From NCBI GenBank assembly GCA_903839725.1, contig CAIMDG010000002.1, positions 241,117-305,116 of the forward strand: a stretch of 64,000 bases of DNA, in the 5' to 3' direction. The DNA comes from an uncultured bacterium (GTDB lineage Bacteria > Patescibacteriota > Minisyncoccia > Phycocordibacterales > PALSA-1337). The position numbers were made by a program, and so were the translations under genes. Shown here one piece after another: positions 6,029 through 56,108 of this stretch. How positions within the stretch are numbered: the first letter of the stretch is position 1; each line of letters starts with the position of its first letter. Under the pieces are notes generated by a model. The model was not told the DNA's origin, did not search any database, and worked only from the letters and a program-made list of their open reading frames with translations.

Positions 6029-6147
6029 CATATATGAATAAAATGGACACTGCGAGCCTGACTGAGGCGAGCACTAGGAATTTTTCAGCAGACGAATGAG
6101 CACATTCGCCACTGGGCAAATATCCGCGTCCATTTTATTCATATATG
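6029..6147 (-). repeat. Family-2 GC-rich structured repeat, copy 1: a 20-bp perfect inverted repeat (catatatgaataaaatggac / gtccattttattcatatatg) enclosing a ~79-nt core
   Basis: The reverse-complemented core cggatattt...gctgaaaaattcctagtgctcgcctcagtcaggctcgcagt matches 13340-13400. Confidence 0.6.
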
Positions 6148-6235
6148 CGGCTGGTTCTTCTCGCTGAGATTCTTATTTTATCTAGACACATACCAAGTAT
6201 TTCTGTTTTATCCCACACGCGCTATAATAGTCCCA

Positions 6236-7732
6236 ATGGACGACACTCAAGATCCACAAAACGACATAGTCAGCTCTGAAAATACGGAAACAACTGAGAA
6301 TGATGAATCAGAAATAAAATCTGGTCAGGTATTCGATATATCTGATGACAACATATCTCCTGCTTCAAATACTGAAGACGAGATGCCTCGCCCTATTTCA
6401 CGTACAACAATCCCTACGATAAAACCGAAGCCCCGCGTTATACCGATTCAAAATATTCCACCAGTAACAATACAATCAAAAGTCATACCTGATATTTCAG
6501 AAAAGACTCAGGAACAAACACCTATAAGACCATTCACTGGCTCCTTATCAAATTTGGAAATGGAAGTTGGTTCTCTGATCCCTCGAAACATGCAACAAAA
6601 AGAAAATCCTTTTGTTCATACAGCACCACCAGAAGAAAAAACAGAAACAGCTCATGAATACGACCAAAAAAATCTCAGAACATATGAAGGTGATGTTGCC
6701 AACATGCTCGCACATACCAAAACTTCAACCACGTCAATAGCTATTGCGGAAAGTCGTAAAACACACGGAACTGACATGATGGGAAGTGATGTCCAGACTC
6801 ATTCTACTGGAAAATTACTGCTTGTATTGGCAAGCATAGTACTTGTTGTTGGTGGGGTATTTGGTGCATATTATTTTTACAGTAAAAGCCCCTTGGCTCA
6901 AAAAGCTGTACCTGTAGTCCCCGAACAAAAAGTCACAAGTCTTATTCCCGCTGATGTACATACGAGTATAGCTATAAATAACCTCGGGCAAGCTGAAATT
7001 ATTTCACGCATCAAACAAGAAATTGCAAAACCATTACCAGGGGACACCATCAAAGATATTGTTCTTGTACGTGAAAATAATGCTGCTATTTCAACGGTCC
7101 TGTCGACTGACATATTAAAGACGATGAATATAGAGCCACCAAATATCCTTACTCGCACCCTCACACCACAATGGATGCTCGGTGTATATTCGAATGAAAA
7201 TAACGAGAAGAGTGTCTTTACTGTTTTCACAACAAATTATTTCCAAAATGCATTTTCAGGAATGCTCCAGTGGGAAAAAATAATGCCTGATGATATAAAA
7301 CAATACTTATTTGCTACACCACCACAAGGAATATCAAACAATCCTGGACAAGCAGTAAGACCAACCGTCGGTCCTGGAAGTCCTTTCGCTAACATCAATG
7401 CTCTTTTACCAAACTCAGATGTTCCAACCTCAACAAATCAAACAGGAACAACAACCAAACTTGCCAAGAAGTTGGCGCCAGCATCAACAACAGTCTCCTC
7501 GACTACAGAAATAGTAGTTCCTGAACCACCACTACAAGCATATGTGACGATCAATGGTCAATTTGAAGATCGTATTGTTAAAAACAAAGATATTCGCGCA
7601 TTCAAGACAACAGATGGTACTGTTCTTTTCCTCTACTCATTTATAGATAGCAATAAACTCATCATTACCGATAAAGAAGAGACTCTGGCCGACATATTGA
7701 TACGCCTTGAAAAACAAACATTCATGAGGTAG
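6236..7732 (+). CDS. Hypothetical membrane-anchored protein (acidic S/T-rich N-terminus, one TM helix, C-terminal domain)
   Basis: TM segment LLLVLASIVLVVGGVFGAYYFY; 498 aa; followed 3 nt later by a DksA/TraR-like gene. Confidence 0.45.
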   Translation: MDDTQDPQNDIVSSENTETTENDESEIKSGQVFDISDDNISPASNTEDEMPRPISRTTIPTIKPKPRVIPIQNIPPVTIQSKVIPDISEKTQEQTPIRPFTGSLSNLEMEVGSLIPRNMQQKENPFVHTAPPEEKTETAHEYDQKNLRTYEGDVANMLAHTKTSTTSIAIAESRKTHGTDMMGSDVQTHSTGKLLLVLASIVLVVGGVFGAYYFYSKSPLAQKAVPVVPEQKVTSLIPADVHTSIAINNLGQAEIISRIKQEIAKPLPGDTIKDIVLVRENNAAISTVLSTDILKTMNIEPPNILTRTLTPQWMLGVYSNENNEKSVFTVFTTNYFQNAFSGMLQWEKIMPDDIKQYLFATPPQGISNNPGQAVRPTVGPGSPFANINALLPNSDVPTSTNQTGTTTKLAKKLAPASTTVSSTTEIVVPEPPLQAYVTINGQFEDRIVKNKDIRAFKTTDGTVLFLYSFIDSNKLIITDKEETLADILIRLEKQTFMR

Positions 7733-7735
7733 AAT

Positions 7736-8107
7736 ATGGGCATGAATAAAAAGGAGACCGAACAATTCAAAAAGAAACTCGTCGCAGAAAAGGCTGAACT
7801 CGAAGCTGAATTAGCTTTGGTTGGTCAACGTAATCCCAATAATCCCAATACTTGGGAAGCAAATACTGGTGGTATGGAAGTTGACGCTGCTGATGAAAAT
7901 GAAGTAGCAGACAAACTCGAAGAATACGAAGGTAATGCGGGTATTGTTACACAACTTGAAAACCAACTTATCGAAGTAAATGCCGCACTTGATCGTATCG
8001 AAAAAGGAACCTATGGTCTCTGCGAGAAATGTGGCAAACCTATAGATAAGGGCCGTCTCGAAGCAAACCCATCATCACGATTTAGTATCGATCACGCAAC
8101 TAAATAA
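7736..8107 (+). CDS. DksA/TraR-family C4-type zinc-finger protein
   Basis: Coiled-coil N-terminus and C-terminal C4 finger with the GLCEKCGKPI spacing typical of DksA/TraR. Confidence 0.65.
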   Translation: MGMNKKETEQFKKKLVAEKAELEAELALVGQRNPNNPNTWEANTGGMEVDAADENEVADKLEEYEGNAGIVTQLENQLIEVNAALDRIEKGTYGLCEKCGKPIDKGRLEANPSSRFSIDHATK

Positions 8108-8112
8108 TATAA

Positions 8113-8136
8113 AAAGCCTCGAAAGAGGCTTTTTTG
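8113..8136 (+). terminator. Rho-independent terminator (6-bp stem, GAAA tetraloop, T5)
   Basis: agcctc-gaaa-gaggct-ttttt. Confidence 0.6.
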
Positions 8137-8266
8137 TTTCCGCTTATCACCGAGAGTCCAAAAGGAACATGTTGGACTTTCTGCACTATGTAGAACATTT
8201 TAAATCTTCATCAAGATTTGATTCTTTTTTCATCAATTCTTCATTCAACTGCAGTATGATCCAATC

Positions 8267-9793
8267 ATGGCAATTGCAAAAACATATACAGCTCAACTCA
8301 ATGGACTTGAAACTGAAATCATAACTGTTGAAGTAGACATAACAAATGGTCTCCATGCATTTTCAGTCGTTGGTATGGGTGACAGATCAGTAACAGAAGC
8401 CAAAGATCGCATATCAGCAGCAATAAAAAATAGTGAGTACACATCTCCGAAACAGAAAAATCAAAAAGTTGTCATATCACTTGCGCCCGCGGATCTGAAG
8501 AAGGAAGGAACCAATTTTGATCTTGCGATGGCAATAGCATATCTTTCAGCTGCGCATGAAATAGATTTTGACCCTGAACACACACTAATTCTTGGAGAAT
8601 TATCACTGGAAGGTCATGTAACTAAAATCCATGGTATTTTACCTATTCTCTGTAAGGCTCCAGAATACGGCTTTACGTCTGTATTTATACCAGAAAAAAA
8701 TAGTACTGAGGCTTCCTTGGCACGAGATATAACAATATATCCAGTCAATTCATTACAGGAAATTATACATCATATTTCTGGAACACAAATTATTAAAGCG
8801 CTCGAACATTCTCAATATAGTGATCATGCGACAGATAGTGCACATATCGACATGAAAACAATTCGAGGTAATGAGGTTGCGAAAAGGGGATTAGAAATTG
8901 CTGCAGCCGGTGGACACAATGTCATCATGTATGGACCGCCAGGTACAGGAAAGACTATGCTGGCACAAAGTTTTGCATCAATACTTCCTGCATTGTCATA
9001 TGAACATGCTGTTGAAGTTACAGGGATACATTCAGCCGCTCGTACACTACAAAATAATCTCATCTACAATCCACCATTTCGAGCGCCCCACCACACAGCC
9101 TCGTACCCATCGATTGTTGGTGGTGGAATCATTCCCAAACCAGGAGAGATAACATTAGCTCACCGAGGCGTGCTATTTGCCGATGAATTTCCGGAATTTG
9201 ATCGAAAAGTTATAGAGGCATTACGGCAACCTCTTGAAAATGGAACAATAACAATCTCTCGAGCACGTGGCGTGATAACATTTCCTGCACAATGCATCTT
9301 GATAGCTTCGATGAATCCTTGTCCTTGCGGAAAAAGTGGCACAAAAGAATGTTCGTGTTCACAACACACCATCGAAAACTACCGACGCAAAATTTCTGGA
9401 CCGATTGCTGATCGTATTGATATATGGCTCAACGTTGAGAAGGTGGATTATGAAAAACTAGCAGCAAAAGTACATATATCTGAATCTTCAGAATCGATAC
9501 GGAAAAGAGTTACTGTATGTCGTTCTCGGCAGTTCGAAAGATTTAGAAAATACAAGATAAAGAAAACATACAATAGCGAACTTTCCGCAGCTGATATAGA
9601 AACATGTGTACACATTGAAGATGGGGCCCGCTCTATATTAGCAGTATCTGCAGAAAAGCTTGAACTATCCGGCAGAGCATTCCACAGAATTATCAAAGTA
9701 GCACAAACTATAGCTGATCTAGAACAAAAAGAAATAATCTCCAAGGAACATATACTTGAAGCCCTACAATATAGACGCAAAATATCAAACTAG
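8267..9793 (+). CDS. comM: YifB/ComM-family Mg-chelatase-like AAA+ ATPase
   Basis: Lon-protease-like N-domain, Walker A MYGPPGTGKTMLA, C-terminal Mg-chelatase subunit ChlI-like domain; 508 aa. Confidence 0.9.
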   Translation: MAIAKTYTAQLNGLETEIITVEVDITNGLHAFSVVGMGDRSVTEAKDRISAAIKNSEYTSPKQKNQKVVISLAPADLKKEGTNFDLAMAIAYLSAAHEIDFDPEHTLILGELSLEGHVTKIHGILPILCKAPEYGFTSVFIPEKNSTEASLARDITIYPVNSLQEIIHHISGTQIIKALEHSQYSDHATDSAHIDMKTIRGNEVAKRGLEIAAAGGHNVIMYGPPGTGKTMLAQSFASILPALSYEHAVEVTGIHSAARTLQNNLIYNPPFRAPHHTASYPSIVGGGIIPKPGEITLAHRGVLFADEFPEFDRKVIEALRQPLENGTITISRARGVITFPAQCILIASMNPCPCGKSGTKECSCSQHTIENYRRKISGPIADRIDIWLNVEKVDYEKLAAKVHISESSESIRKRVTVCRSRQFERFRKYKIKKTYNSELSAADIETCVHIEDGARSILAVSAEKLELSGRAFHRIIKVAQTIADLEQKEIISKEHILEALQYRRKISN

Positions 9794-10878
9794 AATGGAT
9801 TCTTGGCACCTCTAATCTCAAAGTGAACGTGTGAGCCAGTTGAGTTTCCGGTAGAGCCCATGAGAGCGATATTCTGACCCTGCTTCACATAGTCACCTGC
9901 ATGAACAATGTTCTTTGAAAGGTGAGCATACACAGTCTGAGTACCATTTGGATGAGCAATAATAATAAAATTACCATATCCTCCATGCCAACCAGAATTA
10001 AATGCACTTACTATGACAGTTCCTTCTGCTGCAGCATATATAGGAGTACCTATTGGTGCAGCAAGATCAATACCATTATATCCGTGCAGACCTTGAGTCT
10101 TTCTACCACCGACGATCGGACGAATATAATATCCTGAATATGATGGGCCATTTGTACCATGAGCAATATTACCTGAAGAAACGGTTTTTGAAGAAGGTGG
10201 CTGGACCTGAAGTTCAGCATCAGGAATAATAACTGTTTGACCAATAGCGAGAGGGGATGTGAGAGTCAAATCATTATACTGAAGGACTTCAGTAAGATCC
10301 GCTTTGTAGATAGAGACAATACCTTTAATAGTATCTCCCTTCTTTACCGTATAACTAATTCCTGACACAGGCAAAATAATAAGTGTCTGACCTGTCTTGA
10401 GTGGAGAAGATCGTGAAATACCTAAATCTGAGTTTGACCACACAATAGTATTTACTGAAACATCAAACATCTTCGCAATAGTCGATAAAGTATCGCCATC
10501 ACGAACTACATATATACTAACCTGAGTATTTACTGAATCATTTGCGATAATTGGATCCGTGATTGAAATATCAGCAACAAGAATTTGACTATCACTGACT
10601 GGAATACTATCTGATGACTTTTCAACAATTTGATCATGATTAACTGTTGCCTGGAGAAGGGCAATAGTCTGTGAATTGGGATATTGTATCAAAGGCTGTA
10701 CTTTTGCAGATGCTTCCTGACCTTCAAATATCGATGAAATGAAAGAAAAAAGACCGGCGTGTGCGGTCATTGGGTATAAAAAGGGGACAAGTACAGGAAT
10801 AATAAAAAGAACTGTTCCTGTCATAGAACGCTTGAATAGACGGCTATATTTGGTTGCGAGAATGGTCTTGAATTTCAT
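9790..10878 (-). CDS. M23 family metallopeptidase with tandem LysM domains (cell-wall hydrolase)
   Basis: LysM motifs (DGDTLSTIAKMF; KKGDTIKGIVSIY) and an M23 core (HGYNGIDLAAP ... HVHFEIR). Start set at MKFKT (10878) ahead of a signal/TM segment; the ORF track extends to 11148, and an alternative start is 10824. Confidence 0.75.
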   Translation of the reverse strand: MKFKTILATKYSRLFKRSMTGTVLFIIPVLVPFLYPMTAHAGLFSFISSIFEGQEASAKVQPLIQYPNSQTIALLQATVNHDQIVEKSSDSIPVSDSQILVADISITDPIIANDSVNTQVSIYVVRDGDTLSTIAKMFDVSVNTIVWSNSDLGISRSSPLKTGQTLIILPVSGISYTVKKGDTIKGIVSIYKADLTEVLQYNDLTLTSPLAIGQTVIIPDAELQVQPPSSKTVSSGNIAHGTNGPSYSGYYIRPIVGGRKTQGLHGYNGIDLAAPIGTPIYAAAEGTVIVSAFNSGWHGGYGNFIIIAHPNGTQTVYAHLSKNIVHAGDYVKQGQNIALMGSTGNSTGSHVHFEIRGAKNPF

Positions 10879-11168
10879 AACAAAACTAGAGTTTTTGCAA
10901 ATCGTACATACTTCCTTTTTCGATACTCTAGGTAGGGCTCCCAATAAATTAAATGGCTCTGTAAAGCCATTATAATGGGTGCATCCCGAGGGGTGCTCTA
11001 CTAGCCTATCAAGCTCACAAACATTGTCAATCGGGGCTATACACAGCCACAAATAATGACTTACTGTCAATTTTTGTTGTAGCAAATTGAATGTTGCCCG
11101 TGAGTTAGAGTGAGGAGGTTGTTTGTGTGTTCCTGATTGAGATGACAACGGTTAATGGGTTGACTGTT

Positions 11169-11297
11169 GGAGCGAGGTGGCACATATACCCACATGAAAC
11201 AATTCCCAGCGGGATATCGTCCCATTACACTATTCTTTAGGCACTGACTTACTATCGTAACAGATGTTTCATGTGGGTATATGTGACACCTCGCTCC
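11169..11297 (+). repeat. Family-1 structured repeat, copy B: a 33-bp inverted repeat (one G.A mismatch) enclosing a 63-nt conserved core
   Basis: 5' arm ggagcgaggtggcacatatacccacatgaaaca, 3' arm tgtttcatgtgggtatatgtgacacctcgctcc. Core: aACAATTCCCAGCGGGATATCGTCccattacactattctTTAGGCACtgacttactatcgtaacagatgtttc. Confidence 0.7.
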
Positions 11298-11360
11298 ATA
11301 TTAAGAATTAAAAACAACTTTTATTACTCTACACCGCAGGCACATGGTATGATGCTCTTC

Positions 11361-13298: not shown

Positions 13299-13308
13299 TT
13301 TAGTGGGT

Positions 13309-13427
13309 AAGCAAGCCCCACAACATGACTGCGGAGAGACACGGATATTTTTTTGCTGAAAAATTCCTAGTGCTCGCGCCAGTCGCGCTCGCAATGTCCC
13401 TATGTGGTAATGTTGTAGGGCTTGCTT
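13309..13427 (+). repeat. Family-2 GC-rich structured repeat, copy 2: an 18-bp inverted repeat (aagcaagccccacaacat / atgttgtagggcttgctt, one C.A mismatch that is G.U on the opposite strand) enclosing the core
   Basis: Core acggatattt...GCTGAAAAATTCCTAGTGCTCGCgCCAGTCgcGCTCGCAatgtcc matches the reverse complement of 6049-6127. Confidence 0.6.
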
Positions 13428-30031: not shown

Positions 30032-30071
30032 GGGGATACTATAGTGTAAAAAGCTAATATATGCAAGCTAG

Positions 30072-30187
30072 GAGGCACAAGGGGTGTCTGTACTCATTTT
30101 CTGTACAAGTTTGTAAACATTGTGGTACGCGGTGTAATGTACATGTCTCTAAACTTGTACAGAAAATGAGTACAGACACCCCTTGTG
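30072..30187. repeat. 38-bp perfect inverted repeat (ggcacaaggggtgtctgtactcattttctgtacaagtt ... aacttgtacagaaaatgagtacagacaccccttgtgcc) flanking a 40-nt spacer, in the rpmH-dnaA intergenic region
   Basis: Hand-verified complementarity; DnaA-box-like TTATCaACA and cTcTCCACA motifs lie just downstream, around 30230-30260. Confidence 0.6.
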
Positions 30188-30298
30188 CCTACCAAACAGG
30201 GAAAACAATTTTACTATCCCCAACTTATCAACATATTTTATCGCTCTCCACAAGTTTGCATATTTATAAACAGGTATATACTTAGAGACACCAAACCT

Positions 30299-36151: not shown

Positions 36152-36267
36152 GCTCCTTAAATTAAGCTCGTAATTTTTGTATGTGAATAGTTGTAACAAA
36201 GCTTGGGGTTTTTTGCAATAAAAGAGAGCTGTGGATAGTGTGGTCGTGTCCTCGCACAACATGACTC

Positions 36268-36366
36268 TCTTCCGTCGCCTGCCCAGTGGAGGCCGTGCTC
36301 GCCCTCGGGCGCTGATCGCTGGGCCTTCGGCGGCCCGACTCGCTAGTCGTCATCCTCGGCGCACTT
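36268..36366 (+). repeat. Family-3 GC-rich structured repeat, copy 1 (expanded by two GC-rich hairpin insertions, no flanking inverted repeat)
   Basis: Shares the segments tccgtcgcctgc / gggcgctSatcgctgg / catcctcggcgcact with the reverse complement of 56029-56080. Confidence 0.55.
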
Positions 36367-36407
36367 CAGAAAGTTTTGCTGCGCAGTAATACGTTTTTGC
36401 GGGGACA

Positions 36408-36884
36408 CTAATTCTTCACATGAGCCGAATGGGTGAGTGCTACGGCAATCGCATCATATTCATCGTCGAGGGCTTTCTTCGTTGGTAGGATAATGAGTAG
36501 GCCAAGCATTTTGAATATACGATCCTTGCTACTTGTACCATCACTCGTTATGGCCATTTTGACTTGCATAGGAGCATATTCGAATACTGATACATTTCTC
36601 CGTGTAGCTTCATAGATGATAATTCCACGAGCCTCAGCAACACGCATGGCCGTCTTTTGATTCTTGGTGATGAATAGTGTTTCTAGCGCTATTGCGTCAG
36701 GCTTGAATCGGTCGAGGATTTTTCCTGTTTCAGTACCAACTTGGTTGAGTCGGGTGTAGATGGAATCTTTTGAATTGGTTTGTAGACAGTCAGAATAGAG
36801 AAGGGTTTCTTTACCTATTTTTGGTTTCTCTATGATGGCCATACCGAGACGGTCATAGCCCGGATCAATGCCGAGGATTTTCAT
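36408..36884 (-). CDS. ruvC: Crossover junction endodeoxyribonuclease RuvC
   Basis: MKILGIDPGYDRLGMAII start and RNase H-like fold motifs. Start placed at MKIL (36884); the ORF track starts at 36932. Confidence 0.85.
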   Translation of the reverse strand: MKILGIDPGYDRLGMAIIEKPKIGKETLLYSDCLQTNSKDSIYTRLNQVGTETGKILDRFKPDAIALETLFITKNQKTAMRVAEARGIIIYEATRRNVSVFEYAPMQVKMAITSDGTSSKDRIFKMLGLLIILPTKKALDDEYDAIAVALTHSAHVKN

Positions 36885-37762
36885 TATTTTTTTACTGTAA
36901 TCCCACGTCGTTCGAGAGTTGCACTGACCCAAGGATTCACTGAAAGAACTTTCTCTATAAATTCAGGCGTGAAGTGTCTTCTGTCTAGCGTGTCTAGGAG
37001 TTGATGACTTTTTTTAATAGCTTTAACTAACAAATCTTGATTTTTGAATATCATACCCCCTTCAGCTGAACTTTCTCCATCTATGAACGGTGTCGCGATG
37101 AGGGCTTTGAGTAGAAAGTCTTCATTTGCCAACAATTCCGGGGATAGAAATCTGACATATGATTCCCTTATCTTTATGAGAGCAAGGCCAAAATCTATAT
37201 TTGTATTGAGTTCAGGAAGTGTTGCTATGCCGCGTATGTCTAAGCCATATAGCTTTTTGAAAGTAGCAAGACCATACCCGCCGTAATTATTTGTAAACTC
37301 ATTGATCAAACGAATGGCTGCTTCTGGATTTTTCTTGAGTATAGATATGAGACATTCTGGAGAACCTCCGGGGAGGAGCTCGTATATCTCGAGAATACTT
37401 CGGGGACTTTTGTTGATAACACCTTCAAATAAGTCTGCGTCGGCAATTACTTCACTTTTCTTTTTTTCAGATAAGTATTTGAAACAGTAGAAATTATATG
37501 AGAGTGCGTCTTTGATAAATTCCTTATTTAGCAACAAACTATCATCAGCATCCTGAATAAGAGAGGGGTGAAGTCCTATTACCCGTGCCATAAATTCAGG
37601 GTCTTTATTCAGACCACTTCTTCGAACTGCACCAGCTTGCTGTATAGTTGCAAGTTTTTTGATACGTTCAAATTCCTCGTCACGAAGTTCATTCCAGGCT
37701 GTTTTTTCGGCTTCTGATGACTGATCGATTTTCCCTACAACAGCTTTGAAGGCATCTTCCAT
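36884..37762 (-). CDS. Hypothetical protein
   Basis: 292-aa ORF between yebC and ruvC, same strand. Confidence 0.45.
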   Translation of the reverse strand: MEDAFKAVVGKIDQSSEAEKTAWNELRDEEFERIKKLATIQQAGAVRRSGLNKDPEFMARVIGLHPSLIQDADDSLLLNKEFIKDALSYNFYCFKYLSEKKKSEVIADADLFEGVINKSPRSILEIYELLPGGSPECLISILKKNPEAAIRLINEFTNNYGGYGLATFKKLYGLDIRGIATLPELNTNIDFGLALIKIRESYVRFLSPELLANEDFLLKALIATPFIDGESSAEGGMIFKNQDLLVKAIKKSHQLLDTLDRRHFTPEFIEKVLSVNPWVSATLERRGITVKK

Positions 37763-39786: not shown

Positions 39787-39811
39787 TTATATTAGTGTAT
39801 GCTAAGGTGTT

Positions 39812-39897
39812 ACAGAAGAAGCAGGATTCACGATCCAAGATTCAAGAATAGTCGCAATACCATATTGTGTCTATTCTTGAATCTTGAATCCTACATC
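39812..39897. repeat. Long imperfect hairpin (gattcaagaatag / ctattcttgaatc core with extended arms, ~19-nt loop) in the ruvB upstream region
   Basis: Hand-paired; it sits within a 425-nt noncoding stretch (39790-40216). Confidence 0.4.
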
Positions 39898-40216
39898 ATG
39901 TTTTTTAATGCGCTCCTTTCGAACGTATGAACCTCTAAGCAATGGCCTTCCCAGGTTTGGGTGTAATGCTAAGGACATGTTGGTTGTTATGCTTGCATAA
40001 CGTACTGAAATTATCCTCGGGATTCCACCTCGCTTGACGCATCACGCGACAAGATATTGCTTAGAGATTCCTATGTTTGAATATACATCGCCGACAAGGC
40101 GGTTTATTCGTATATGAGGTGATACTTCTGGATATATCCTACTCTTGTCGCACTATAAAAATCAATTGACAGTGGGGATAAAATGGTTGGTAAGATGACG
40201 ATGGTAAACCTAGTTT

Positions 40217-42231: not shown

Positions 42232-42308
42232 ATGAGTACTAGTATATCAGCCCTATGAGCTCTCGTGAACGTCGAAAACAGGGTATAACAGAGCCCTTTT
42301 ATGGGTAT

Positions 42309-42343
42309 TGACAATGCCCCTCAATATGGTATAATAGTAACAA
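42309..42343 (+). promoter_or_regulatory. Near-consensus sigma70 promoter (TTGACA, N17, TATAAT)
   Basis: ttgacaatgcccctcaatatggtataat upstream of the lipoprotein gene. Confidence 0.5.
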
Positions 42344-42409
42344 ATCTCGGAGGTGGCCCTCTTGAGATACATTTCAACAAAAACGTCGGTTGTCGGTCTT
42401 TAAAAACTT

Positions 42410-43651: not shown

Positions 43652-43663
43652 TTTAAGCTTATC

Positions 43664-43786
43664 GTATCTCTAGACACACTGCCCGTCGAAACAATTCCCA
43701 GCGGGATATCGTCTTTTAATATTATACTTTAGGCACATATATTAGAACGTCACGGATGTTTCGACGGGCAGTGTGTCTAGAGATAC
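43664..43786 (+). repeat. Family-1 structured repeat, copy C: a 30-bp perfect inverted repeat (gtatctctagacacactgcccgtcgaaaca / tgtttcgacgggcagtgtgtctagagatac) enclosing a 63-nt core
   Basis: Core aACAATTCCCAGCGGGATATCGTCttttaatattatacTTTAGGCACatatattagaacgtcacggatgtttc; about 30 nt upstream of the polA start. Confidence 0.75.
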
Positions 43787-43816
43787 GTTACTTCAATACT
43801 GGTGTACAATATACCT

Positions 43817-50497: not shown

Positions 50498-50989
50498 ATG
50501 ATAAAAGGGAAATCAATGCCAAGAGATATTCGACTAATTTTGGACAATATCCGTAGTGTTCATAATGTAGGCTCTATTTTCCGTACAGCTGACACCCTCG
50601 GTATTTCAAAGATATATTGTCTTGATACGACACCTACTCCTGTAGATCGATTCAAAAATAAGAGGAAGGACTTTGCGAAAGTTTCATTGGGTGCTGAGGA
50701 TACTGTGTTATGGGAACACGTGAGTAATTTCAAATCTATAATCTCAAATCTAAAAAAAGAAGGTTTTACCATTATTGCTCTTGAACAGGCGAATAATTCT
50801 GTTGACTATAAGCTGGTTGAATCGACCAATAAGACTGTAGTCATTCTCGGCAATGAAGTAGACGGTGTCTCAAAAGAATTATTACAGGAATGTGACATTG
50901 TTGCTGAAATACCTTTGATAGGGAAGAAAGAGTCCTTGAATGTATCGGTATCAGCGGGAATATTTTTGTATAGGTTGTTGGATAATTGA
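50498..50989 (+). CDS. SPOUT (TrmH/SpoU-family) RNA 2'-O-methyltransferase
   Basis: SpoU motifs HNVGSIFRTADTLG, ILGNEVDGVS, ESLNVSVSAGIFLY. Confidence 0.8.
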   Translation: MIKGKSMPRDIRLILDNIRSVHNVGSIFRTADTLGISKIYCLDTTPTPVDRFKNKRKDFAKVSLGAEDTVLWEHVSNFKSIISNLKKEGFTIIALEQANNSVDYKLVESTNKTVVILGNEVDGVSKELLQECDIVAEIPLIGKKESLNVSVSAGIFLYRLLDN

Positions 50990-50996
50990 TTATTTC

Positions 50997-51131
50997 GAGC
51001 CGGACGCGGTGACATGTGCACCTGCGAACAACTCCGTGACGATAGTGAATAAGTGCCTGAAGAATTACATAATGAGACGATATCCCGCTGGGAATGTTGT
51101 TCGCGGGTGCACATGTCACCGTGTCCGGCTC
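50997..51131 (-). repeat. Family-1 structured repeat, copy D: a 36-bp inverted repeat (perfect except for two G.U wobbles on the + strand) enclosing the core in reverse orientation
   Basis: 5' arm gagccggacgcggtgacatgtgcacctgcgaacaac, 3' arm gttgttcgcgggtgcacatgtcaccgtgtccggctc. Loop: ...GTGCCTgAAGaattacataatgaGACGATATCCCGCTGGGAATgTTg. Confidence 0.75.
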
Positions 51132-51148
51132 TGAATTGTGATTCGTCC

Positions 51149-52075
51149 TTACACTTTACTCAACTTTTGATGAGTGTCACAAAAATGAGTACCGCGACCA
51201 CCAAGAACGATGCGAACAATAGTTCCATTGCACCCCTTCTTATCACAAGGCGTTCCTGTTCTTTGGTAGGCATGATGACCTTCATGAAAACTTCCTTTTT
51301 CTCCGAGCACATTGCGATAGTCGGACGTCGAATCACCACCAAAATCGATACCTTTTGCAAGCGTTTGTTTGATTGCCTTGAATAGGTCGGTGAGCTGTTT
51401 TGTTGTTACATTCTCTACAGGTTCCTGTGGGTGTATACCTGCACGCCATAAAGATTCATCAGCATAAATATTCCCGATACCCGCAATGATGGATTGATCC
51501 ATAAGTACCTGTTTTATTTTCCCGTGAGGTCTTAGCAGTATTCTTTCTTCAAAAACTTTTTGAGTAAATGTATCTTCAAGAGGTTCGGGACCGATTCTTT
51601 CTAGATGTAGTGATGTAGTTTTTTCATGTGATGGTATCAATGTTACCTTGGCGAATTTTCGAACATCAGAAAGAGCGAGATTCTTCTTATTTGAAAAACT
51701 GAGCATGAAACGGATATACGCATTAAATGGATCTTTCAGTGCTTCTGGTTCAATAGCTTCCCACGGATCTTTTGTATTCGAGGTATTAAAACGATATGTG
51801 CCATAGAGTAAGTGGCCGGTCATTTTCATATGCACCAAGATAGTATCTCCATGTTCAAGATTGATTAGAATATTTTTTGCACGACGATGTACGGATATAA
51901 CTTTCTTTCCAAGAATAGTTTTTTTGAATTGGCTGAAATAAGCTCGATCTTTAATGGTATCTGAACCTTTGAAGTATGGACTATTATAATTTGACCATAC
52001 ATCCACTATAGTAAGCCCTACTATATGTTCTTGTAGGCCATTCACAGTGGTTTGTACTTCTGGTAGTTCGGGCAT
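51149..52075 (-). CDS. mutM: Formamidopyrimidine-DNA glycosylase (Fpg/MutM; Fpg/Nei family)
   Basis: N-terminal PELPEVQT with catalytic Pro2/Glu3, H2TH region, C-terminal zinc finger CDKKGCNGTIVRIVLGGRGTHFC. Confidence 0.85.
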   Translation of the reverse strand: MPELPEVQTTVNGLQEHIVGLTIVDVWSNYNSPYFKGSDTIKDRAYFSQFKKTILGKKVISVHRRAKNILINLEHGDTILVHMKMTGHLLYGTYRFNTSNTKDPWEAIEPEALKDPFNAYIRFMLSFSNKKNLALSDVRKFAKVTLIPSHEKTTSLHLERIGPEPLEDTFTQKVFEERILLRPHGKIKQVLMDQSIIAGIGNIYADESLWRAGIHPQEPVENVTTKQLTDLFKAIKQTLAKGIDFGGDSTSDYRNVLGEKGSFHEGHHAYQRTGTPCDKKGCNGTIVRIVLGGRGTHFCDTHQKLSKV

Positions 52076-52142
52076 ATATAGATACTAGTCCGTAAAAGGG
52101 AATCAGTAAACTGTGAAGCCTCCCAGATGAGTACACCCTGAT

Positions 52143-52215
52143 AAAACATCCGTTACGTACTAATATGAGTGCCTGAAGAATACGATAATGAGACGATATC
52201 CCGCTGGGAATGTTG
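52143..52215 (-). repeat. Family-1 structured repeat, copy E (complete core in reverse orientation, no flanking inverted repeat detected)
   Basis: aaaacatccgttacgtactaatatgaGTGCCTgAAGaatacgataatgaGACGATATCCCGCTGGGAATgTTg. Confidence 0.6.
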
Positions 52216-52268
52216 CGCGCAACTAGTATGAGTGAGGTGTTCTTCAAAATTATTGATATACTATACGC

Positions 52269-53531
52269 ATGCGTTATTATCTCGCAGTACTTTTTACTCT
52301 CGTAGCATTCGGCCTCCCTTGGGTTGCTATTCAATATCCCGACGCAACATCAAGTGTAGTACGTGCCCTTGAAGACGTCGGTAGTCAGCTTGCAGCGGTG
52401 ATCCTATCTCACAATCCAAAATCTATTGTTGAAATCCAGTCAAAATATGTTGCAGTATCCACTCCAGCCGCACCAAAAGTTCGTATTCTGATTGTTCCAG
52501 GTCATGAACCTGATTTCGGGGGAGCGGAATACAGTACTCTCAAGGAAAGAGATATGACAGTAATGCTTGCTGATAATCTCGCAGCATTTCTCAATAGAAA
52601 TACTCATTATCAAGTATTCCAAACACGCTCGTATCATTCATGGAATCCTGACTTTGAAACATACTTTACTAATTCGTGGGACGACATTGTCGCGTGGTCG
52701 AAAGCTTCACACGCAGAATTTTCACAATTAGTTTCAGCAGGCACGGTCAAAAAAAGTGCACCAGTGATATATCACAATAGGGCACCTGAGAAAGTTGCCA
52801 CACATCTGTTTGGTATTACCAAATGGGCAAATGAAAATAATATCGACATTACTATTCACGTTCACTTCAACGATGTCCCTGGTCACAGCCGGAATAGTCC
52901 TGGAAAAAATACAGGATTCTCTATCTATGTCCCTCAAAAACAATATTTGAATAGCACCACCACCAAGGCTGTTGCAGAAACTGTATTCAAACGTCTCGCA
53001 AAATATAACGGAGTGAGTGATTTGGCGGGGGAGTCTGCGGGAATAGTCGAAGAACCAGATCTCATTGCTATCGGGGTTAATAATACATCTGATGCCGCAA
53101 GTTTACTTATAGAATATGGATATATATACGAACCTCAATTTACTAACCCAGACACACAGCCTCTAGCGATACAGGATCTCGCATTTCAAACATATTTAGG
53201 ACTTGAAGATTTCTTTGGTGCGCAAGCGGGAGTATCTTTTGGGTATGATACATTGATGATTCCTCACCAGTGGAATACGACAATTACAAAAAAAGAGGCA
53301 CCAACAGAAGATGTGTTCGCACTTCAGACAGCATTGTTACTTGAAGGTACATATCCGCCAAGTAATAGAAGTATGAATGATTGTCCTCGATCAGGAACAT
53401 TTGGTCCTTGTACCAAAGCAGCTCTCGATTCATTCCAAAAAAAATATAATATTACTTCAGAAAAAGAAATAGTTGGTCCACAAACACTCAATATTTTAAA
53501 TAATTTGTACTCCGTGAAGTCTATTAACTAA
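52269..53531 (+). CDS. N-acetylmuramoyl-L-alanine amidase (Amidase_3-like) with a C-terminal peptidoglycan-binding domain
   Basis: Signal/TM start, amidase_3-like region (ILIVPGHEPDFGGAEY ... HVHFNDV), C-terminal PG_binding_1-like region (DVFALQTALLLEG ... PCTKAALDSFQKKYNI). Confidence 0.55.
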   Translation: MRYYLAVLFTLVAFGLPWVAIQYPDATSSVVRALEDVGSQLAAVILSHNPKSIVEIQSKYVAVSTPAAPKVRILIVPGHEPDFGGAEYSTLKERDMTVMLADNLAAFLNRNTHYQVFQTRSYHSWNPDFETYFTNSWDDIVAWSKASHAEFSQLVSAGTVKKSAPVIYHNRAPEKVATHLFGITKWANENNIDITIHVHFNDVPGHSRNSPGKNTGFSIYVPQKQYLNSTTTKAVAETVFKRLAKYNGVSDLAGESAGIVEEPDLIAIGVNNTSDAASLLIEYGYIYEPQFTNPDTQPLAIQDLAFQTYLGLEDFFGAQAGVSFGYDTLMIPHQWNTTITKKEAPTEDVFALQTALLLEGTYPPSNRSMNDCPRSGTFGPCTKAALDSFQKKYNITSEKEIVGPQTLNILNNLYSVKSIN

Positions 53532-54093
53532 GTACTTTGAGCGCAGCTTTGACCTTGGCACCTGTGTCAGTGATATCTTTGTGTACTTTTTTGAGTGCCT
53601 CGCGAGCCTCGTTCGCATCATATCCGAGAGCTTTGAGGGCTTCGATTGCGTCCGCATCGGCAGACATACCTGCTGACATATCTTCTCCGGAAATACCTCC
53701 GAGCTTGTCGCGTAATTCAAGGACAATCTTTTCTGCAGTTTTTCTACCAATACCTGAAACTTTGACCAAGTGAGCTGTTGAACCAGAACGGATAGCGCTT
53801 GCGAGAGTGTCACTTGATACTATTGAAAGTATATTCAATGCACTCTTCGGGCCAATACCAGAAATGGAAATAAGTAGTTCAAAAAAGTCCTTTTCTTTTC
53901 TACTAGTGAATCCGTATAAGTCGAGAGCATCTTCACGTACAACGAGATGAGTAAGAAGGGTGGCCTCGGCGCCGATTTTGAGCATATGTAATGACTCGTC
54001 AGTGACGAATACTTTATAGCCAAGTCCATTGATATCTATGGATACATAGCGATTGCCCAATTCAAGTACATTTCCTCGTATAGATGAGATCAT
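53524..54093 (-). CDS. ruvA: Holliday junction DNA helicase subunit RuvA
   Basis: MISSIRGNVLE start, OB fold, two HhH motifs (ISGIGPKSALNIL; VSGIGRKTAEKIV), C-terminal domain III. Confidence 0.85.
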   Translation of the reverse strand: MISSIRGNVLELGNRYVSIDINGLGYKVFVTDESLHMLKIGAEATLLTHLVVREDALDLYGFTSRKEKDFFELLISISGIGPKSALNILSIVSSDTLASAIRSGSTAHLVKVSGIGRKTAEKIVLELRDKLGGISGEDMSAGMSADADAIEALKALGYDANEAREALKKVHKDITDTGAKVKAALKVLS

Positions 54094-54168
54094 AGGCCTA
54101 TTATAGCAGGTTTCTTTACTTTTTCTCGATATCATGATAAGTTCTTGGTACGTAAAACATATATAACC

Positions 54169-54432
54169 ATGCCTATTACCTCATCAGCCAAGAAAGCTCT
54201 CCGCGCCTCAAAGAAGAAGCGTGTTTTTAATATTCGTCGTAGTAATGCTATCGAGAGAGAAATGAAGGATTTTCGTCGTTTGATCGCCGCAAAGAAGGTT
54301 GCTGATGCAACAAAGCTCGTTCCTGCTATTTATCAAGCTCTTGATAAGGCAGTAAAGACCAATCTCATCAAAGCCAACACTTCATCACGTACCAAATCTC
54401 GCGTGATGGCAGCACTCAAGCGTGCAGCATAA
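54169..54432 (+). CDS. rpsT: 30S ribosomal protein S20
   Basis: MPITSSAKKALRASKKKRVFNIRR matches the S20 N-terminus. Start placed at MPIT; the ORF track starts at 54145. Confidence 0.8.
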   Translation: MPITSSAKKALRASKKKRVFNIRRSNAIEREMKDFRRLIAAKKVADATKLVPAIYQALDKAVKTNLIKANTSSRTKSRVMAALKRAA

Positions 54433-54437
54433 GGATT

Positions 54438-54519
54438 TAGTTTACAGTTGTAAGTTTACAATGAAAAGTTGTGGCACATGTGCAACAACTTTTCATTTTG
54501 CATTTTTCACTGTAAACTA
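54438..54519. repeat. Gene-less ~80-bp imperfect palindrome whose outer arms (tagtttacagt / actgtaaacta) match the inverted-repeat ends of the four-helix-bundle cassette at 38307-38780
   Basis: Left arm ttagtttacagttgtaagtttacaatgaaaagttgtggcacatg, right arm catgtgcaacaacttttcattttgcatttttcactgtaaactag. The shared motif ataaggat(t)agtttacag occurs at both loci. Confidence 0.5.
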
Positions 54520-54527
54520 GTTTAATT

Positions 54528-54599
54528 GCCCTCGTCGTTCAATGGATAGGACGCAAGATTGCGGATCTTGCAATGTAGGTTCGATTCCTACCGGGGGCA
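54528..54599 (+). tRNA. tRNA-Arg (anticodon GCG by hand fold; check with tRNAscan)
   Basis: Acceptor GCCCTCG/CGGGGGC (one G.U), anticodon stem CAAGA/TCTTG, loop TTGCGGA, T-loop TTCGATT. Homologous to the tRNA-Arg at 60224. Confidence 0.7.
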
Positions 54600-54650
54600 C
54601 AACAGGGGAAAGTTAAAAGTCTAAAGAAAAAAAGGTATAATCTACATACC

Positions 54651-55460
54651 ATGTTAGAACAGGCACCACAATCATATCAAGAAATATATCGTGAACGATT
54701 TGATAATGATCACATAATAGGGAATACTTTTTCTTTTGATGATCCAGATCAAGGTAAATCAACTGTTTTAAAAATAAGTAAACTCAATAGTATTTTAGGT
54801 GAAGGTGCGTACGCATCTTGGGTTGCAGATGTTGATGTGGAGCTTGCCGGCGATTCTGGAACAGAAAAGAAGACTCATCGTATGGCCCTAAAGAAGTATC
54901 GTGAAAATGAACCGCGTGTTGATGAACATGTTCAACAGTCATATAAAAATTTTCGTTTACTTAAATCAAAGGGAATAGCGACGTGGGATACCTATCGAAT
55001 CAATCAGGAACATAAGCTCGCACTGATGACACTAGGTGCTCGCAATGAAGGTGTGCTTGTTACTGTAAATGACAAAGGAGAACATGCAAGCAAAGAAGTC
55101 TTTGAAAAGAATCCCATGGATGCAGTAGCCAATTTCGGTGAATTTATTTCTCAAACAAAATCAATCATCGCTAAGTTACGTGAGCACGTATTACGTGTGA
55201 ATACAGATGCGTGGGGCATTGAGTTTGTTCCTGTTGAGGGAAAACCAGGGGCGTATAAGCTTCGATTGCTTGTAGCCGATCTCGATGGGATTGATACCTC
55301 AGATAATCCATACAATATTGAGAATTACGGTGCGGATATACAAGACGCATGGAATAGAGAAAATTTATATTTTTTACATATTGCTCTTCGGGGAATTTTA
55401 CCAGGAGACAAAAAAGAAAAAGAAGCATTTGCTGATGTTGTTGTACACAAGAGTATGTAA
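54651..55460 (+). CDS. Protein-kinase-like fold protein (atypical; possible small-molecule or protein phosphotransferase)
   Basis: Gly-rich loop LGEGAYAS, putative VAIK-like Lys (MALKKY), catalytic-loop-like VNTDAWG and a DFG-like DLDG about 26 aa later. Weak, pattern-based. Confidence 0.3.
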   Translation: MLEQAPQSYQEIYRERFDNDHIIGNTFSFDDPDQGKSTVLKISKLNSILGEGAYASWVADVDVELAGDSGTEKKTHRMALKKYRENEPRVDEHVQQSYKNFRLLKSKGIATWDTYRINQEHKLALMTLGARNEGVLVTVNDKGEHASKEVFEKNPMDAVANFGEFISQTKSIIAKLREHVLRVNTDAWGIEFVPVEGKPGAYKLRLLVADLDGIDTSDNPYNIENYGADIQDAWNRENLYFLHIALRGILPGDKKEKEAFADVVVHKSM

Positions 55461-55486
55461 CAAAAATACCGATCTCTCGGTATTTT

Positions 55487-55954
55487 TTAGAAGCCAAATT
55501 TCTCGAGTATCTTCTTGAGTATAGGTTCGTAGTGTTCTGTTTCTGCAATATATCGAAGAAGGATTTCACGAACTTTCTCAGGGTCAATATTTTCATCGAT
55601 ATAGATCACGATAAGAGGCATGAATGTCTTACTCGACTTCAAAATAAGTTTTGCAGGAAGTTCATCGTGTGGTACCCAGAATGAATCAAGCGATAAGAAA
55701 GGGTAGAGTACTTTGTCGAGAATGATGCCGCGGTCATTGATCTCGCAGTACAGCTCATGTGGTGGGTGTGAGGCGTGAAGTACCAATGCCCCCGCTGCCA
55801 CAATCACGAGTACGCCACTGATGATGTCACCAAATATAAAAGCAACGACTGCAAGTGCAAGCGCAATAATACCAACTGACCAATACCAGTCAGAAGTTTT
55901 TTCTACGTAGAGGTGCGATGGAGCGTTCCAAGAGATGAGAGCTTCAGTTGCCAT
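55487..55954 (-). CDS. Hypothetical membrane protein
   Basis: Two TM helices (WYWSVGIIALALAVVAFIFG; ISGVLVIVAAGALVL); 155 aa. Confidence 0.4.
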   Translation of the reverse strand: MATEALISWNAPSHLYVEKTSDWYWSVGIIALALAVVAFIFGDIISGVLVIVAAGALVLHASHPPHELYCEINDRGIILDKVLYPFLSLDSFWVPHDELPAKLILKSSKTFMPLIVIYIDENIDPEKVREILLRYIAETEHYEPILKKILEKFGF

Positions 55955-56000
55955 GAAAGAATTATAGCATTCATTTTTTATTAGTGCTGTGTATAAACAG

Positions 56001-56108
56001 AAACATACGACTGCACAATAAGGCTTTCTGTAGTGCGCCGAGGATGGGTAGCCAGCGATGAGCGCCCGCAGGCGACGGAAGAAAGCCTTATTGTGCAGTC
56101 GTATGTTT
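56001..56108 (-). repeat. Family-3 GC-rich structured repeat, copy 2: a 26-28-bp perfect inverted repeat (acatacgactgcacaataaggctttc / gaaagccttattgtgcagtcgtatgt) enclosing a 52-nt GC-rich core
   Basis: Core tgtagtgcgccgaggatgggtagccagcgatgagcgcccgcaggcgacgga is the reverse complement of the conserved segments of 36268-36366. Confidence 0.65.

What the first reader, a model, noticed from the sequence alone, without database searches (positions are those of the whole stretch)
6029..56108. Families 2 and 3: GC-rich islets with the same core-in-palindrome architecture, one copy expanded by hairpin insertions
Family 2 (6029-6147 on the - strand; 13309-13427 on the + strand) shares the core GCTGAAAAATTCCTAGTGCTCGC.CCAGTC..GCTCGCA. 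Family 3 (36268-36366 on the + strand; 56001-56108 on the - strand) shares tccgtcgcctgc / gggcgctSatcgctgg / catcctcggcgcact. Three of the four copies are again enclosed by copy-specific perfect inverted repeats of 20 bp, 18 bp (one C.A, which is G.U on the other strand) and 26-28 bp. The cores are strikingly GC-rich in an AT-rich genome. The 36268 copy carries two extra GC-rich segments, ccagtggaggccgtgctcgccctc and gccttcggcggcccgactcgctagtcgt. Both can fold as hairpins (one with a cUUCGg-like loop), which looks like expansion of a structured RNA rather than random sequence. A 12-mer cacaacatgact is shared between the 13309 family-2 copy and the 36256 family-3 copy at the stem-core boundary. 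Three unrelated cores using the same palindrome-embedded layout point to a common generating mechanism or a common class of RNA.
Basis: seen in the sequence. Interest (0 to 1): 0.7.

Follow-up and report, generated by a model that had tools for sequence, protein, structure and literature searches.

The report
Capped palindromic hairpin repeats in Patescibacteria
The four GC-rich islets are real copies of two families of intergenic hairpin repeats from a tiny-genome (Patescibacteria) bacterium, each a long self-complementary stem capped by a conserved segment; they are gained, lost, flipped and eroded between close relatives like small mobile DNA, and one cap is a conserved, apparently undescribed folded motif found across this bacterial group.

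Summary
All four copies sit at the stated coordinates in intergenic DNA. Three lie inside long near-perfect inverted repeats, which never occur in shuffled sequence.

Family 2 is not local. An exact 18-mer of its core found 23 further copies in 14 Patescibacteria MAGs. Its 63-nt cap folds as a three-way junction (98% of cells paired, six pairs with compensatory changes). It has no match in Rfam, phage or plasmid collections.

Family 3 is narrow: three copies in two related genomes. Its core alone folds no better than shuffles.

Comparison with relatives shows whole hairpins, arms plus cap, present or absent between otherwise tight gene junctions. One orthologous copy is inverted. Two copies have each lost one arm by deletion.

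The arms are not unrelated between copies. They are fast-diverging homologues that stay self-complementary.

The first extra segment of the 36268 copy is a module that also occurs in the 6029 family-2 copy.

Best reading (confidence about 0.5): a REP/MITE-like class of duplicating palindromic repeats with variable arms and a conserved, structure-constrained cap. No strand bias, promoter or transposase was found, so an RNA function is possible but unproven.

The parts
6018..6158 (-). Family 2 copy A: complete hairpin. Arms are 6018-6048 and 6128-6158; the expanded cap is 6049-6127.
   Evidence: Inverted repeat I9. Covariance model R1 scores 65.5 bits at 6040-6136. Fold of -64.7 kcal/mol, z = -8.3.
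6092..6117 (-). Inserted hairpin module in the P2 loop of family 2 copy A (GCCCAGTGG-CGAAT-GTGCTC-ATTCG).
   Evidence: It is absent from all 24 other family 2 copies. The pattern CCCAGYGG-N(0,12)-GTGCTC occurs only here and at 36282-36300, against 0.02 expected.
5930..5995 (+). Truncated family 1 element (left arm plus about 40 nt of core) lying next to family 2 copy A.
   Evidence: Repeat family D1. The close relative L268 has the complete family 1 hairpin at this site.
13309..13427 (+). Family 2 copy B: hairpin with an 18-nt outer arm (one C.A), a degenerate inner arm, and a canonical 63-nt cap at about 13336-13400.
   Evidence: R1 scores 88.9 bits at 13332-13404. Fold z = -5.65. The orthologous copy in L009 is inverted.
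36236..36432 (+). Family 3 copy A: a decayed hairpin. The core is 36268-36366. Both flanks remain homologous to the arms of copy B but no longer pair well with each other.
   Evidence: right flank against copy B arm, 23 of 32 positions, 0 of 2000 shuffles. The site is empty in L260, L261, L258 and L259.
36283..36306 (+). Insertion 1 in family 3 copy A: the same CCCAGTGG / GTGCTC-loop hairpin module as in family 2 copy A.
   Evidence: Alignment with copy B and the L260 copy. Pattern search.
36323..36350 (+). Insertion 2 in family 3 copy A (GCCTTCGGCGGCCCGACTCGCTAGTCGT). It replaces CTACC and can form two small hairpins.
   Evidence: Alignment and folds. No second instance was found.
55998..56111 (-). 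Family 3 copy B: hairpin with 32-nt arms (97% complementary) and a 50-nt, 70% GC cap at 56030-56079.
   Evidence: Inverted repeat I8. Fold z = -11.2. The site holds 25 nt instead of 135 nt in relative L271.

Best explanation
Families 2 and 3, and family 1 of the same window, belong to one class of small intergenic palindromic repeats in Patescibacteria.

Anatomy. Each unit is about 100-140 bp. It has two long inverted-repeat arms (18-43 bp) around a conserved cap.
- Family 2 cap: a 63-nt three-way junction. P1 is GGACA/TGTCC. P2 is 10 bp with a bulged T and a TGCT loop. P3 is GC-rich with a TC/TC internal loop and a C(A)GTC loop.
- Family 3 cap: a 42-50-nt segment of 70% GC.

Shown here:
- The whole unit, arms included, is what appears and disappears between related genomes, in spacers that are otherwise 2-30 nt long.
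- Paralogous units have homologous arms, so the unit is copied as a whole.
- The arms then diverge faster than the flanking genes, yet both arms change together and stay complementary.
- The loop can flip.
- Units erode by deletions that remove one arm.
- Caps can take up small hairpin modules and share arm segments across families.

Inferred:
- The arms are kept complementary by intra-palindrome template switching or gene conversion (quasi-palindrome correction, known from E. coli genetics), not by selection on an RNA.
- The cap keeps its sequence, loops, bulge and internal loop because a trans-acting factor recognises the folded single strand, as DNA or as RNA. That factor either copies the unit or uses it.
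- When read through from neighbouring genes, the units would form long double-stranded RNA hairpins, which are natural RNase III substrates, carrying the cap.

The copying enzyme and any host function remain unknown.
For: Distribution and structure:
- 23 true family 2 copies in 14 Patescibacteria MAGs, up to 4 per genome, three of them at contig ends.
- Cap structure: 98.3% of cells paired, 6 pairs with changes on both sides, 0 of 500 shuffles reach the observed values, and slid controls give 36-56% paired. RNAalifold independently gives the same structure.
- All 25 copies are intergenic. Where the upstream neighbour is a same-strand gene, the gap from its stop codon to the model hit (18-40 nt in L011, L025, L012, L027, L010, L019, L018b and window copy B) is about the length of the arm (21-42 nt where measured). 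In those copies the arm therefore starts at or very near the stop codon. This was compared by eye, not computed per copy.

Gain and loss of whole units:
- yebC-ruvC spacer: 2 nt in L258/L259, a 133-nt hairpin in L260, and a DUF4116 gene in the window.
- Family 3 copy A is absent in four relatives. Copy B is absent in L271.
- The L260 family 3 copy is absent from the window at 42232-42373.
- Family 1 at 43660-43790 is absent in L260.
- The PNPase downstream spacer is 19-21 nt in L266/L267 and 365 nt in the window.
- There are no copies in 3 x 22 kb of relatives L265-L267.

Arms:
- Arms of same-genome paralogues are alike: mean local score 8.56 against a null of 5.51, and the top pairs exceed the null maximum.
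- Family 3 copy A flank against copy B arm: 0 of 2000 shuffles reach the score.
- Orthologous copies in the window and L009 are both 119 nt and align without gaps only after reverse-complementing (score 157 against 92). The arms carry three fully compensated substitutions.

Erosion: the window and L268 each lost a different arm plus part of a cap at the PNPase site.

No strand bias in non-Watson-Crick cells. A module is shared between families.
Against: - No transposase, recombinase or reverse transcriptase is near any copy examined; neighbours are housekeeping genes.
- No consistent target-site duplication was found. There are no conserved terminal inverted repeats beyond 5 bp.
- The cap is more conserved than neighbouring coding DNA at an orthologous site: about 12% divergence against 31%. 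It keeps its loops, bulge and internal loop in nearly all copies. This argues for function beyond selfish spread, or for concerted evolution among copies.
- Orientation relative to co-directional genes is 10 same to 3 opposite (plus L260). This is a weak hint of sense-strand preference, as expected for an RNA element.
- At the UvrD-upstream site the family 1 arms differ completely between genomes whose flanks are 86% identical. Simple divergence with correction does not easily explain this.
- Family 3 rests on three copies.
Confidence: 0.5

Rival explanations
1. The units are genes or processing cassettes for a family of small structured RNAs. Read-through or own transcription yields a long double-stranded RNA stem. 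RNase III cuts it and releases a capped hairpin of about 90-110 nt, whose three-way-junction cap binds a protein or acts catalytically. The arms need only pair, so they drift.
For: - Strong covariation, with conserved loops, bulge and internal loop, in family 2.
- The cap is conserved at an orthologous site beyond the level of coding DNA.
- Orientation bias of 10 to 3 towards the sense strand of co-directional neighbours.
- On the reverse strand the P3 internal loop reads as tandem G.A/A.G, a common RNA motif (seen directly in the sequence).
- A genuine type III hammerhead lies in the same window, so small ribozymes exist in this genome.
Against: - G.U and A.C cells are equally frequent.
- The orthologous copy is inverted but intact.
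- No conserved promoter was found.
- Copies are deleted freely between close relatives.
- There is no Rfam match even at E<10.
- Family 3 caps do not fold better than shuffles.
Confidence: 0.25
2. The caps are small non-autonomous mobile elements that insert into the loops of pre-existing palindromes such as terminators, as IS1397 and IS621 do with REP sequences. The arms would then be host sequence.
For: - The genome holds long palindromes without caps: 30069-30194, 39816-39906 and 54438-54519.
- Some arms look like A-tract/stem/T-tract terminators, for example L020, L009 and L011.
- Different caps sit on related arms: the 12-mer shared by family 2 copy B and family 3 copy A.
- A small module inserted into loops of two different caps.
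- Family 1 inner arms are replaced while the outer flank is kept.
Against: - Every empty site examined lacks both arms, not just the cap.
- Paralogous copies have homologous arms.
- Most right arms have no T-run shortly after the cap. On my reading of the 25 printed sequences, 5-7 have one.
Confidence: 0.15
3. The units are transcription terminators or intercistronic processing hairpins that merely share loop sequence by common descent, with no mobility.
For: - They lie at gene ends, often starting at the stop codon.
- They are bidirectionally symmetric, with purine-rich 5' arms and pyrimidine-rich 3' arms (A-T pairs 329 against T-A 204).
Against: - Near-identical caps occur in distant classes of Patescibacteria.
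- There is rapid gain and loss at operon junctions that are 2-21 nt in relatives.
- Some copies sit between divergent genes (L018, L020).
- A U-tract is usually missing.
Confidence: 0.08

Closest known systems
REP / REPIN / BIME elements of Proteobacteria
   Same: Short intergenic palindromic repeats that fill spacers at gene ends. They are multi-copy, mosaic in make-up, form hairpins in mRNA, and are gained and lost between strains.
   Different: In REPs the palindrome itself is the conserved sequence, with a 5' GTAG, and the loop or spacer varies. Here the arms vary and the loop (cap) is conserved. No RAYT (TnpA-REP) gene was seen.
Bacterial MITEs (Correia/NEMIS, ERIC, RUP, Rickettsia palindromic elements)
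   Same: Non-coding units of 100-150 bp that fold as long hairpins, lie in intergenic DNA, show presence/absence polymorphism, and break assemblies.
   Different: MITEs have conserved terminal inverted repeats matching a parent IS, and target-site duplications. Here only 5 bp (GGACA/TGTCC) next to the cap is conserved, and no duplication or parent IS was found.
GC clusters and double-hairpin or repetitive hairpin-forming elements of fungal and sponge mitochondria (e.g. PMC2800124, listed)
   Same: GC-rich hairpin-forming islets scattered in the intergenic DNA of an AT-richer compact genome, with nested insertions, several families and no known mobilising enzyme.
   Different: A different host domain and no sequence relation. 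Those elements are themselves the conserved hairpins and are not capped by a conserved loop on variable arms. This comparison rests on the abstract and on general knowledge, not on a test made here.
Integron attC sites
   Same: Structure-defined, sequence-variable imperfect palindromes placed directly after stop codons. They carry conserved extrahelical bases and are recognised as folded single strands.
   Different: attC conserves the outer R boxes and varies the centre, needs an integron integrase, and occurs in cassette arrays. None of these features is present here.
Type III hammerhead ribozyme (Rfam RF00008), present at 1543-1598
   Same: A three-way junction of similar size with an open closing helix, in the same genome.
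   Different: The family 2 junction strands are C / TAG / A, not CUGAUGA / GAA / H. There is no Rfam match.

Membership tests
MITE | Terminal inverted repeats conserved among copies and matching an autonomous IS | tested here: not met
   The arms differ between copies. Only GGACA/TGTCC is conserved. No IS or transposase lies in the window or in the loci examined.
MITE | Target-site duplication flanking each copy | tested here: not met
   Four filled/empty site comparisons show no consistent direct repeat. The one case, GGCTATATTT near the L260 family 3 copy, lies 6 nt outside each arm.
MITE | Multi-copy, with presence/absence polymorphism between related genomes | tested here: met
REP/REPIN | Conserved 20-40-nt imperfect palindrome with a 5' GTAG, and an associated RAYT gene | tested here: not met
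   The arms are not conserved and have no GTAG motif. No Y1 transposase was found among the neighbours that were scanned.
Intrinsic terminator | GC-rich hairpin followed directly by a U-tract | tested here: inconclusive
   On my reading of the 25 family 2 sequences, 5-7 have at least 4 T within about 12 nt after the cap's closing helix; this was not scripted. Most long arms are not followed by a T-run.
Known Rfam RNA families (ribozymes, rRNA, tRNA, sRNAs) | Covariance-model score at or near the gathering threshold | tested here: not met
   No hit over the elements at gathering thresholds or at E up to 10 on short stretches. The best was RAGATH-30 at 16.5 bits against a threshold of 59.5, E = 1.1.
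Structured non-coding RNA (generic) | Conserved secondary structure with compensatory changes | tested here: met
   Family 2: 6 pairs changed on both sides, 98.3% paired, 0 of 500 shuffles. Family 3: only one compensated pair among three copies.
Structured non-coding RNA (generic) | Strand specificity (G.U tolerated and A.C avoided; constant orientation to the transcription unit) | tested here: not met
   G.U 5 against A.C 5 in the cap. Both kinds occur in the arms. The orthologous copy is inverted. Orientation is 10 to 3.
Structured non-coding RNA (generic) | Expression as a discrete transcript | not testable with these tools
   No transcriptome data are available.
Inverton (invertible promoter) | A segment flanked by inverted repeats and found in both orientations, with a nearby invertase and an internal promoter | tested here: inconclusive
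   Both orientations are seen between species, but five assemblies of the same species are identical. No recombinase lies next to the units, and no promoter-like hexamers were seen in the cap by inspection.
IS200/IS605-derived PATE | Two subterminal imperfect hairpins recognised by TnpA, and strand-specific insertion next to a fixed tetranucleotide | not tested
   The cap has two imperfect hairpins with a bulged T. No TnpA was seen, and no fixed flanking tetranucleotide can be defined because the arms vary.

The most novel reading that the evidence does not exclude
The family 2 cap is a new structured nucleic-acid motif found across Patescibacteria. It is a 63-nt three-way junction carried on long RNase III-type stems. 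It would be the recognition or catalytic module of a so far unknown way of copying palindromic units as a whole, or a new multi-copy small RNA or ribozyme released from intercistronic hairpins. Families 1 and 3 would be sister caps that use the same chassis.
Probability: 0.25. Interest if true: 0.8.

Novelty: new variant of a known kind. Interest (0 to 1): 0.6.

Why it matters
Patescibacteria have genomes of about 1 Mb with very short spacers and are thought to carry few repeats. A class of palindromic units that is repeatedly inserted into operon junctions, flipped and deleted would be a main source of structural change in these genomes. It would also cause contig breaks in their MAGs: three family 2 copies lie at contig ends.

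The logic is the reverse of REPs and MITEs, with a conserved, structure-constrained cap on freely drifting but self-correcting arms. This gives a clean natural system for studying how palindromes are maintained.

It also points to an unknown factor that reads a folded 63-nt junction.

Tried and rejected
1. The metagenome scan for family 3 used TCCGTCGCCTGC-N(0,30)-GGGCGCT. That single scan was wasted.
2. Viral-contig scans gave no family 1 or family 2 hit. The 105 hits to a family 3 16-mer were all chance.
3. Phage and plasmid BLAST of the family 2 consensus and of family 3 copy A found no match.
4. Rfam gave nothing for any family, at gathering thresholds or at permissive E-values.
5. The family 2 covariance model does not detect family 3 or family 1. 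The caps are therefore not variants of one motif at the model's sensitivity.
6. Arms as captured foreign or genomic sequence: the arms have no second copy in 74 kb of this genome beyond single chance 12-mers. Their match to viral sequence was not tested.
7. Arms as inverted duplications of the target flank: empty sites show no similarity to either arm. One weak purine-rich resemblance at the UvrD site was left open.
8. Literature searches found no description of these elements. One preprint could not be opened.
9. Extending the genome by 10 kb (L263) and examining L264 gave no further copies.

Full report
**Setting.** The window is a bacterial chromosome segment of 41% GC. It encodes PNPase, UvrD, KsgA, RuvABC, PBP1, PolA, DnaA/DnaN and seven scattered tRNAs. 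Sources name the nearest homologues of RuvC and PNPase as Paceibacterota, Parcubacteria or 'Patescibacteria group'. The same contig occurs in several ENA metagenome assemblies.

**The observation.**
- The inverted repeats are real. 6018-6048/6128-6158 is 31 nt at 84%, with a perfect run of 20. 13309-13326/13410-13427 is 18 nt with one C.A. 55998-56029/56080-56111 is 32 nt at 97%.
- Inverted repeats of this size never occur in shuffled sequence: 7 observed against 0 in 20 shuffles.
- Whole hairpins fold 5.6 to 11 standard deviations better than shuffles.
- Family 3 cores are 70% GC and family 2 cores 50-53%, against 41% for the window.
- The 36268 copy has only a decayed palindrome.
- Rfam has no match for any family, even at E up to 10 on short stretches. 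The only ribozyme is a type III hammerhead at 1543-1598.

**Family 2 is widespread and structured.** An exact 18-mer from its core found 28 places in one-genome-per-species contigs. Of these, 23 are true copies in 14 MAGs labelled Saccharibacteria, Parcubacteria, Taylorbacteria or Patescibacteria. There are up to four per genome, and three lie at contig ends.
- The conserved part is 63 nt: GGACACGGATATTTTTCTGCTGAAAAATTCCTAGTGCTCGCGCCAGTCGCGCTCGCAATGTCC.
- It forms a three-way junction. P1 is GGACA/TGTCC. P2 is 10 bp with a bulged T and a TGCT loop. P3 is GC-rich with a TC/TC internal loop and a C(A)GTC loop.
- On 21 sequences, 98.3% of cells pair and six pairs change on both sides. No shuffle of 500 reaches the observed values, and sliding the partners drops pairing to 36-56%. 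RNAalifold finds the same structure.
- A covariance model recovers all copies and two diverged ones. It finds only the two known copies in the window and does not see family 3 or family 1.
- Non-Watson-Crick cells are G.U 5 against A.C 5. Arm mismatches are of both kinds. Neither strand is therefore favoured.

**Every copy sits on its own long palindrome.** Arms are 18-43 nt and mostly perfect. Where the upstream neighbour is a same-strand gene, the stop-to-hit gap of 18-40 nt is about one arm length, so the arm begins at or near the stop codon. This was compared by eye, not computed per copy. Orientation relative to co-directional neighbours is 10 same to 3 opposite, counting the L260 copy, which is not significant.

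**Whole units are gained and lost.** Relative L260 has RuvC at 88% amino-acid identity and about 76% nucleotide identity, and is syntenic with window 26-47 kb.
- L260 carries a family 2 unit between yebC and ruvC. L258/L259 have a 2-nt spacer there, and the window has a DUF4116 gene.
- L260 carries a family 3 unit with perfect 26-nt arms upstream of a T2SS ATPase gene. The window has none at that site.
- L260 lacks family 3 copy A and the family 1 unit at 43660-43790.
- Relatives L265-L267 have no unit in 22 kb each. Their PNPase-to-next-gene spacer is 19-21 nt in L266 and L267, against 365 nt in the window.
- Family 3 copy B is replaced by 25 nt in L271.
- In every empty site both arms are missing, not just the cap.

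**Units flip and erode.**
- L009 shows 69% nucleotide identity over 6.5 kb of synteny. It has a family 2 unit at the same UvrD-KsgA site and of the same length, 119 nt. The two align without gaps only after reverse-complementing (score 157 against 92). The arms carry three fully compensated substitutions and one half-substitution.
- L268/L269 (PNPase 99% amino-acid, 92.7% nucleotide identity) have, downstream of PNPase, a complete family 1 unit followed by only the last 9 nt of a family 2 cap plus its right arm. The window has the family 1 left arm plus about 40 nt of its core, followed by a complete family 2 unit. Each lineage has therefore deleted a different arm and part of a cap.

**Arms are homologous, not unrelated.**
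- Arms of paralogues within one genome are alike: L021/L027, L013/L024, L024a/b and L018a/b. The mean local score is 8.56 against a null of 5.51, and the best pairs exceed the null maximum.
- The right flank of family 3 copy A matches the arms of copy B at 23 of 32 positions without gaps, reached by 0 of 2000 shuffles.
- The left arm of copy A resembles that of the L260 copy. It also carries the 12-mer shared with family 2 copy B.
- The unit is therefore copied with its arms. The arms then drift quickly while staying paired.
- One observation does not fit simple drift. Upstream of UvrD the family 1 core is conserved, but the arms are unalignable between the window and L268, although the flanks are 86% identical.

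**The 'expansion' of the 36268 copy.** Compared with copy B and the L260 copy, it has two discrete insertions, at 36283-36306 and 36323-36350.
- The first is a hairpin module: CCCAGTGG, a 5-bp stem, then a GTGCTC loop.
- The same module, with a different but again complementary stem (CGAAT/ATTCG against AGGCC/GCCCT), is inserted in the P2 loop of family 2 copy A. It is absent from the other 24 family 2 copies.
- The pattern occurs exactly twice in the window, against 0.02 expected.
- The second insertion can form two small hairpins but has no second instance.
- Family 3 caps alone fold no better than shuffles (z about 0). Only one compensated pair is seen among three copies (CGCC/GGCG against CGUC/GACG).

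**Interpretation.** The data fit a class of duplicating palindromic repeats better than a family of RNA genes.
- The points in favour are gain and loss of whole units at tight operon junctions, homologous arms among paralogues, inversion, loss of one arm by deletion, no strand bias and no promoter.
- The perfect Watson-Crick arms, with paired substitutions, are what intra-palindrome template switching would produce without selection. This is an inference from established quasi-palindrome genetics.
- The cap cannot be explained that way. It keeps its loops, a bulged T and an internal loop in nearly all copies. At the orthologous site it is more conserved than coding DNA. Something therefore reads the folded cap.
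Hence the split of 0.5 for the repeat model and 0.25 for the RNA model.
- No transposase, recombinase or reverse transcriptase lies near any copy examined. There is no match in phage or plasmid collections. Literature searches found no description.

**Verdict.** The RNA nature is unproven and the cores are not unrelated. This is a new variant of a known kind, namely small palindromic intergenic repeats, with reversed logic of a conserved cap on variable arms.

Noticed in passing
window 1543-1598 (-); L265 7991-8043; L267 6520-6599 and 8407-8483: A type III hammerhead ribozyme (Rfam 50.5 bits, gathering score 48.5) lies between two minus-strand genes. The hammerhead itself is conserved in relative L265 (87%). 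The adjacent stretches 1618-1697 and 2026-2089 recur once or twice in L265 and L267, next to small ORFs of unknown function.
   Followed up: partly
window 11168-11298, 43660-43790, 50992-51136, 52140-52220, 5930-5995: Family 1 has a 63-nt core (ATTCCCAGCGGGATATCGTC...) inside 34-41-nt arms, the same architecture as families 2 and 3. At the site upstream of UvrD, the close relative L268 has the same core on completely different arms, although the flanks are 86% identical.
   Followed up: partly
window 30069-30194; L260 16507-16618: A very long palindrome (47-48-nt arms, 22-32-nt spacer) lies directly upstream of dnaA. The relative L260 has a 37-nt perfect palindrome at the same place with a different spacer. 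It may be related to the origin region.
   Followed up: no
window 39787-40216; L260 7408-7970: A 430-nt intergenic region between ruvB and the next gene holds two inverted repeats (39816-39906 and 39926-40073, the latter with a 106-nt spacer). It is conserved at about 78% in L260. No Rfam match. It is a candidate non-coding RNA or regulatory region.
   Followed up: no
window 60315-60353 and 62021-62059: A repeated hairpin, GCGAGCCAAGCAGTTGGCTCGC plus 17 nt (95% identical), lies next to the tRNA-Val and tRNA-Leu genes. It is probably a shared terminator or processing signal.
   Followed up: no
window 36884-37762 (-): A 292-aa ORF with a DUF4116 domain sits between yebC and ruvC. These genes are 2 nt apart in L258/L259 and separated by a family 2 unit in L260, so this junction is a hot spot for insertions.
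   Followed up: partly
L264 2600-3030 against window 55940-56310: L264 is 99.97% identical to the window over 60221-64000 but only 65% over ruvX. Its tRNA-Ser is inverted, and a second copy of the sequence GGATGGGGTGAGATTCGA at one end of that tRNA gene lies about 150 nt away. This suggests recombination or an integration scar, or an assembly chimera.
   Followed up: no
L260 2828-2967: A 25-nt-arm palindrome (GGCACCCCCTTTAAAAAGGGGG...) lies inside the polA reading frame. It falls in the variable stretch that does not align with the window's polA, and recalls the in-frame palindromic elements of Rickettsia.
   Followed up: no
window 36228-36240 and 55983-55996; L260 about 10500; L271 about 1985: Both family 3 copies of the window lie next to a TATMCACAGC motif resembling a DnaA box (TTATCCACA in L260). 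The motif is also present at the empty sites. This could be a target preference or coincidence.
   Followed up: no
L265 1806-3986: A XerC/XerD-type integrase gene interrupted by an intein with a LAGLIDADG domain (726 aa, against 307 aa in L266, L267 and L268).
   Followed up: no
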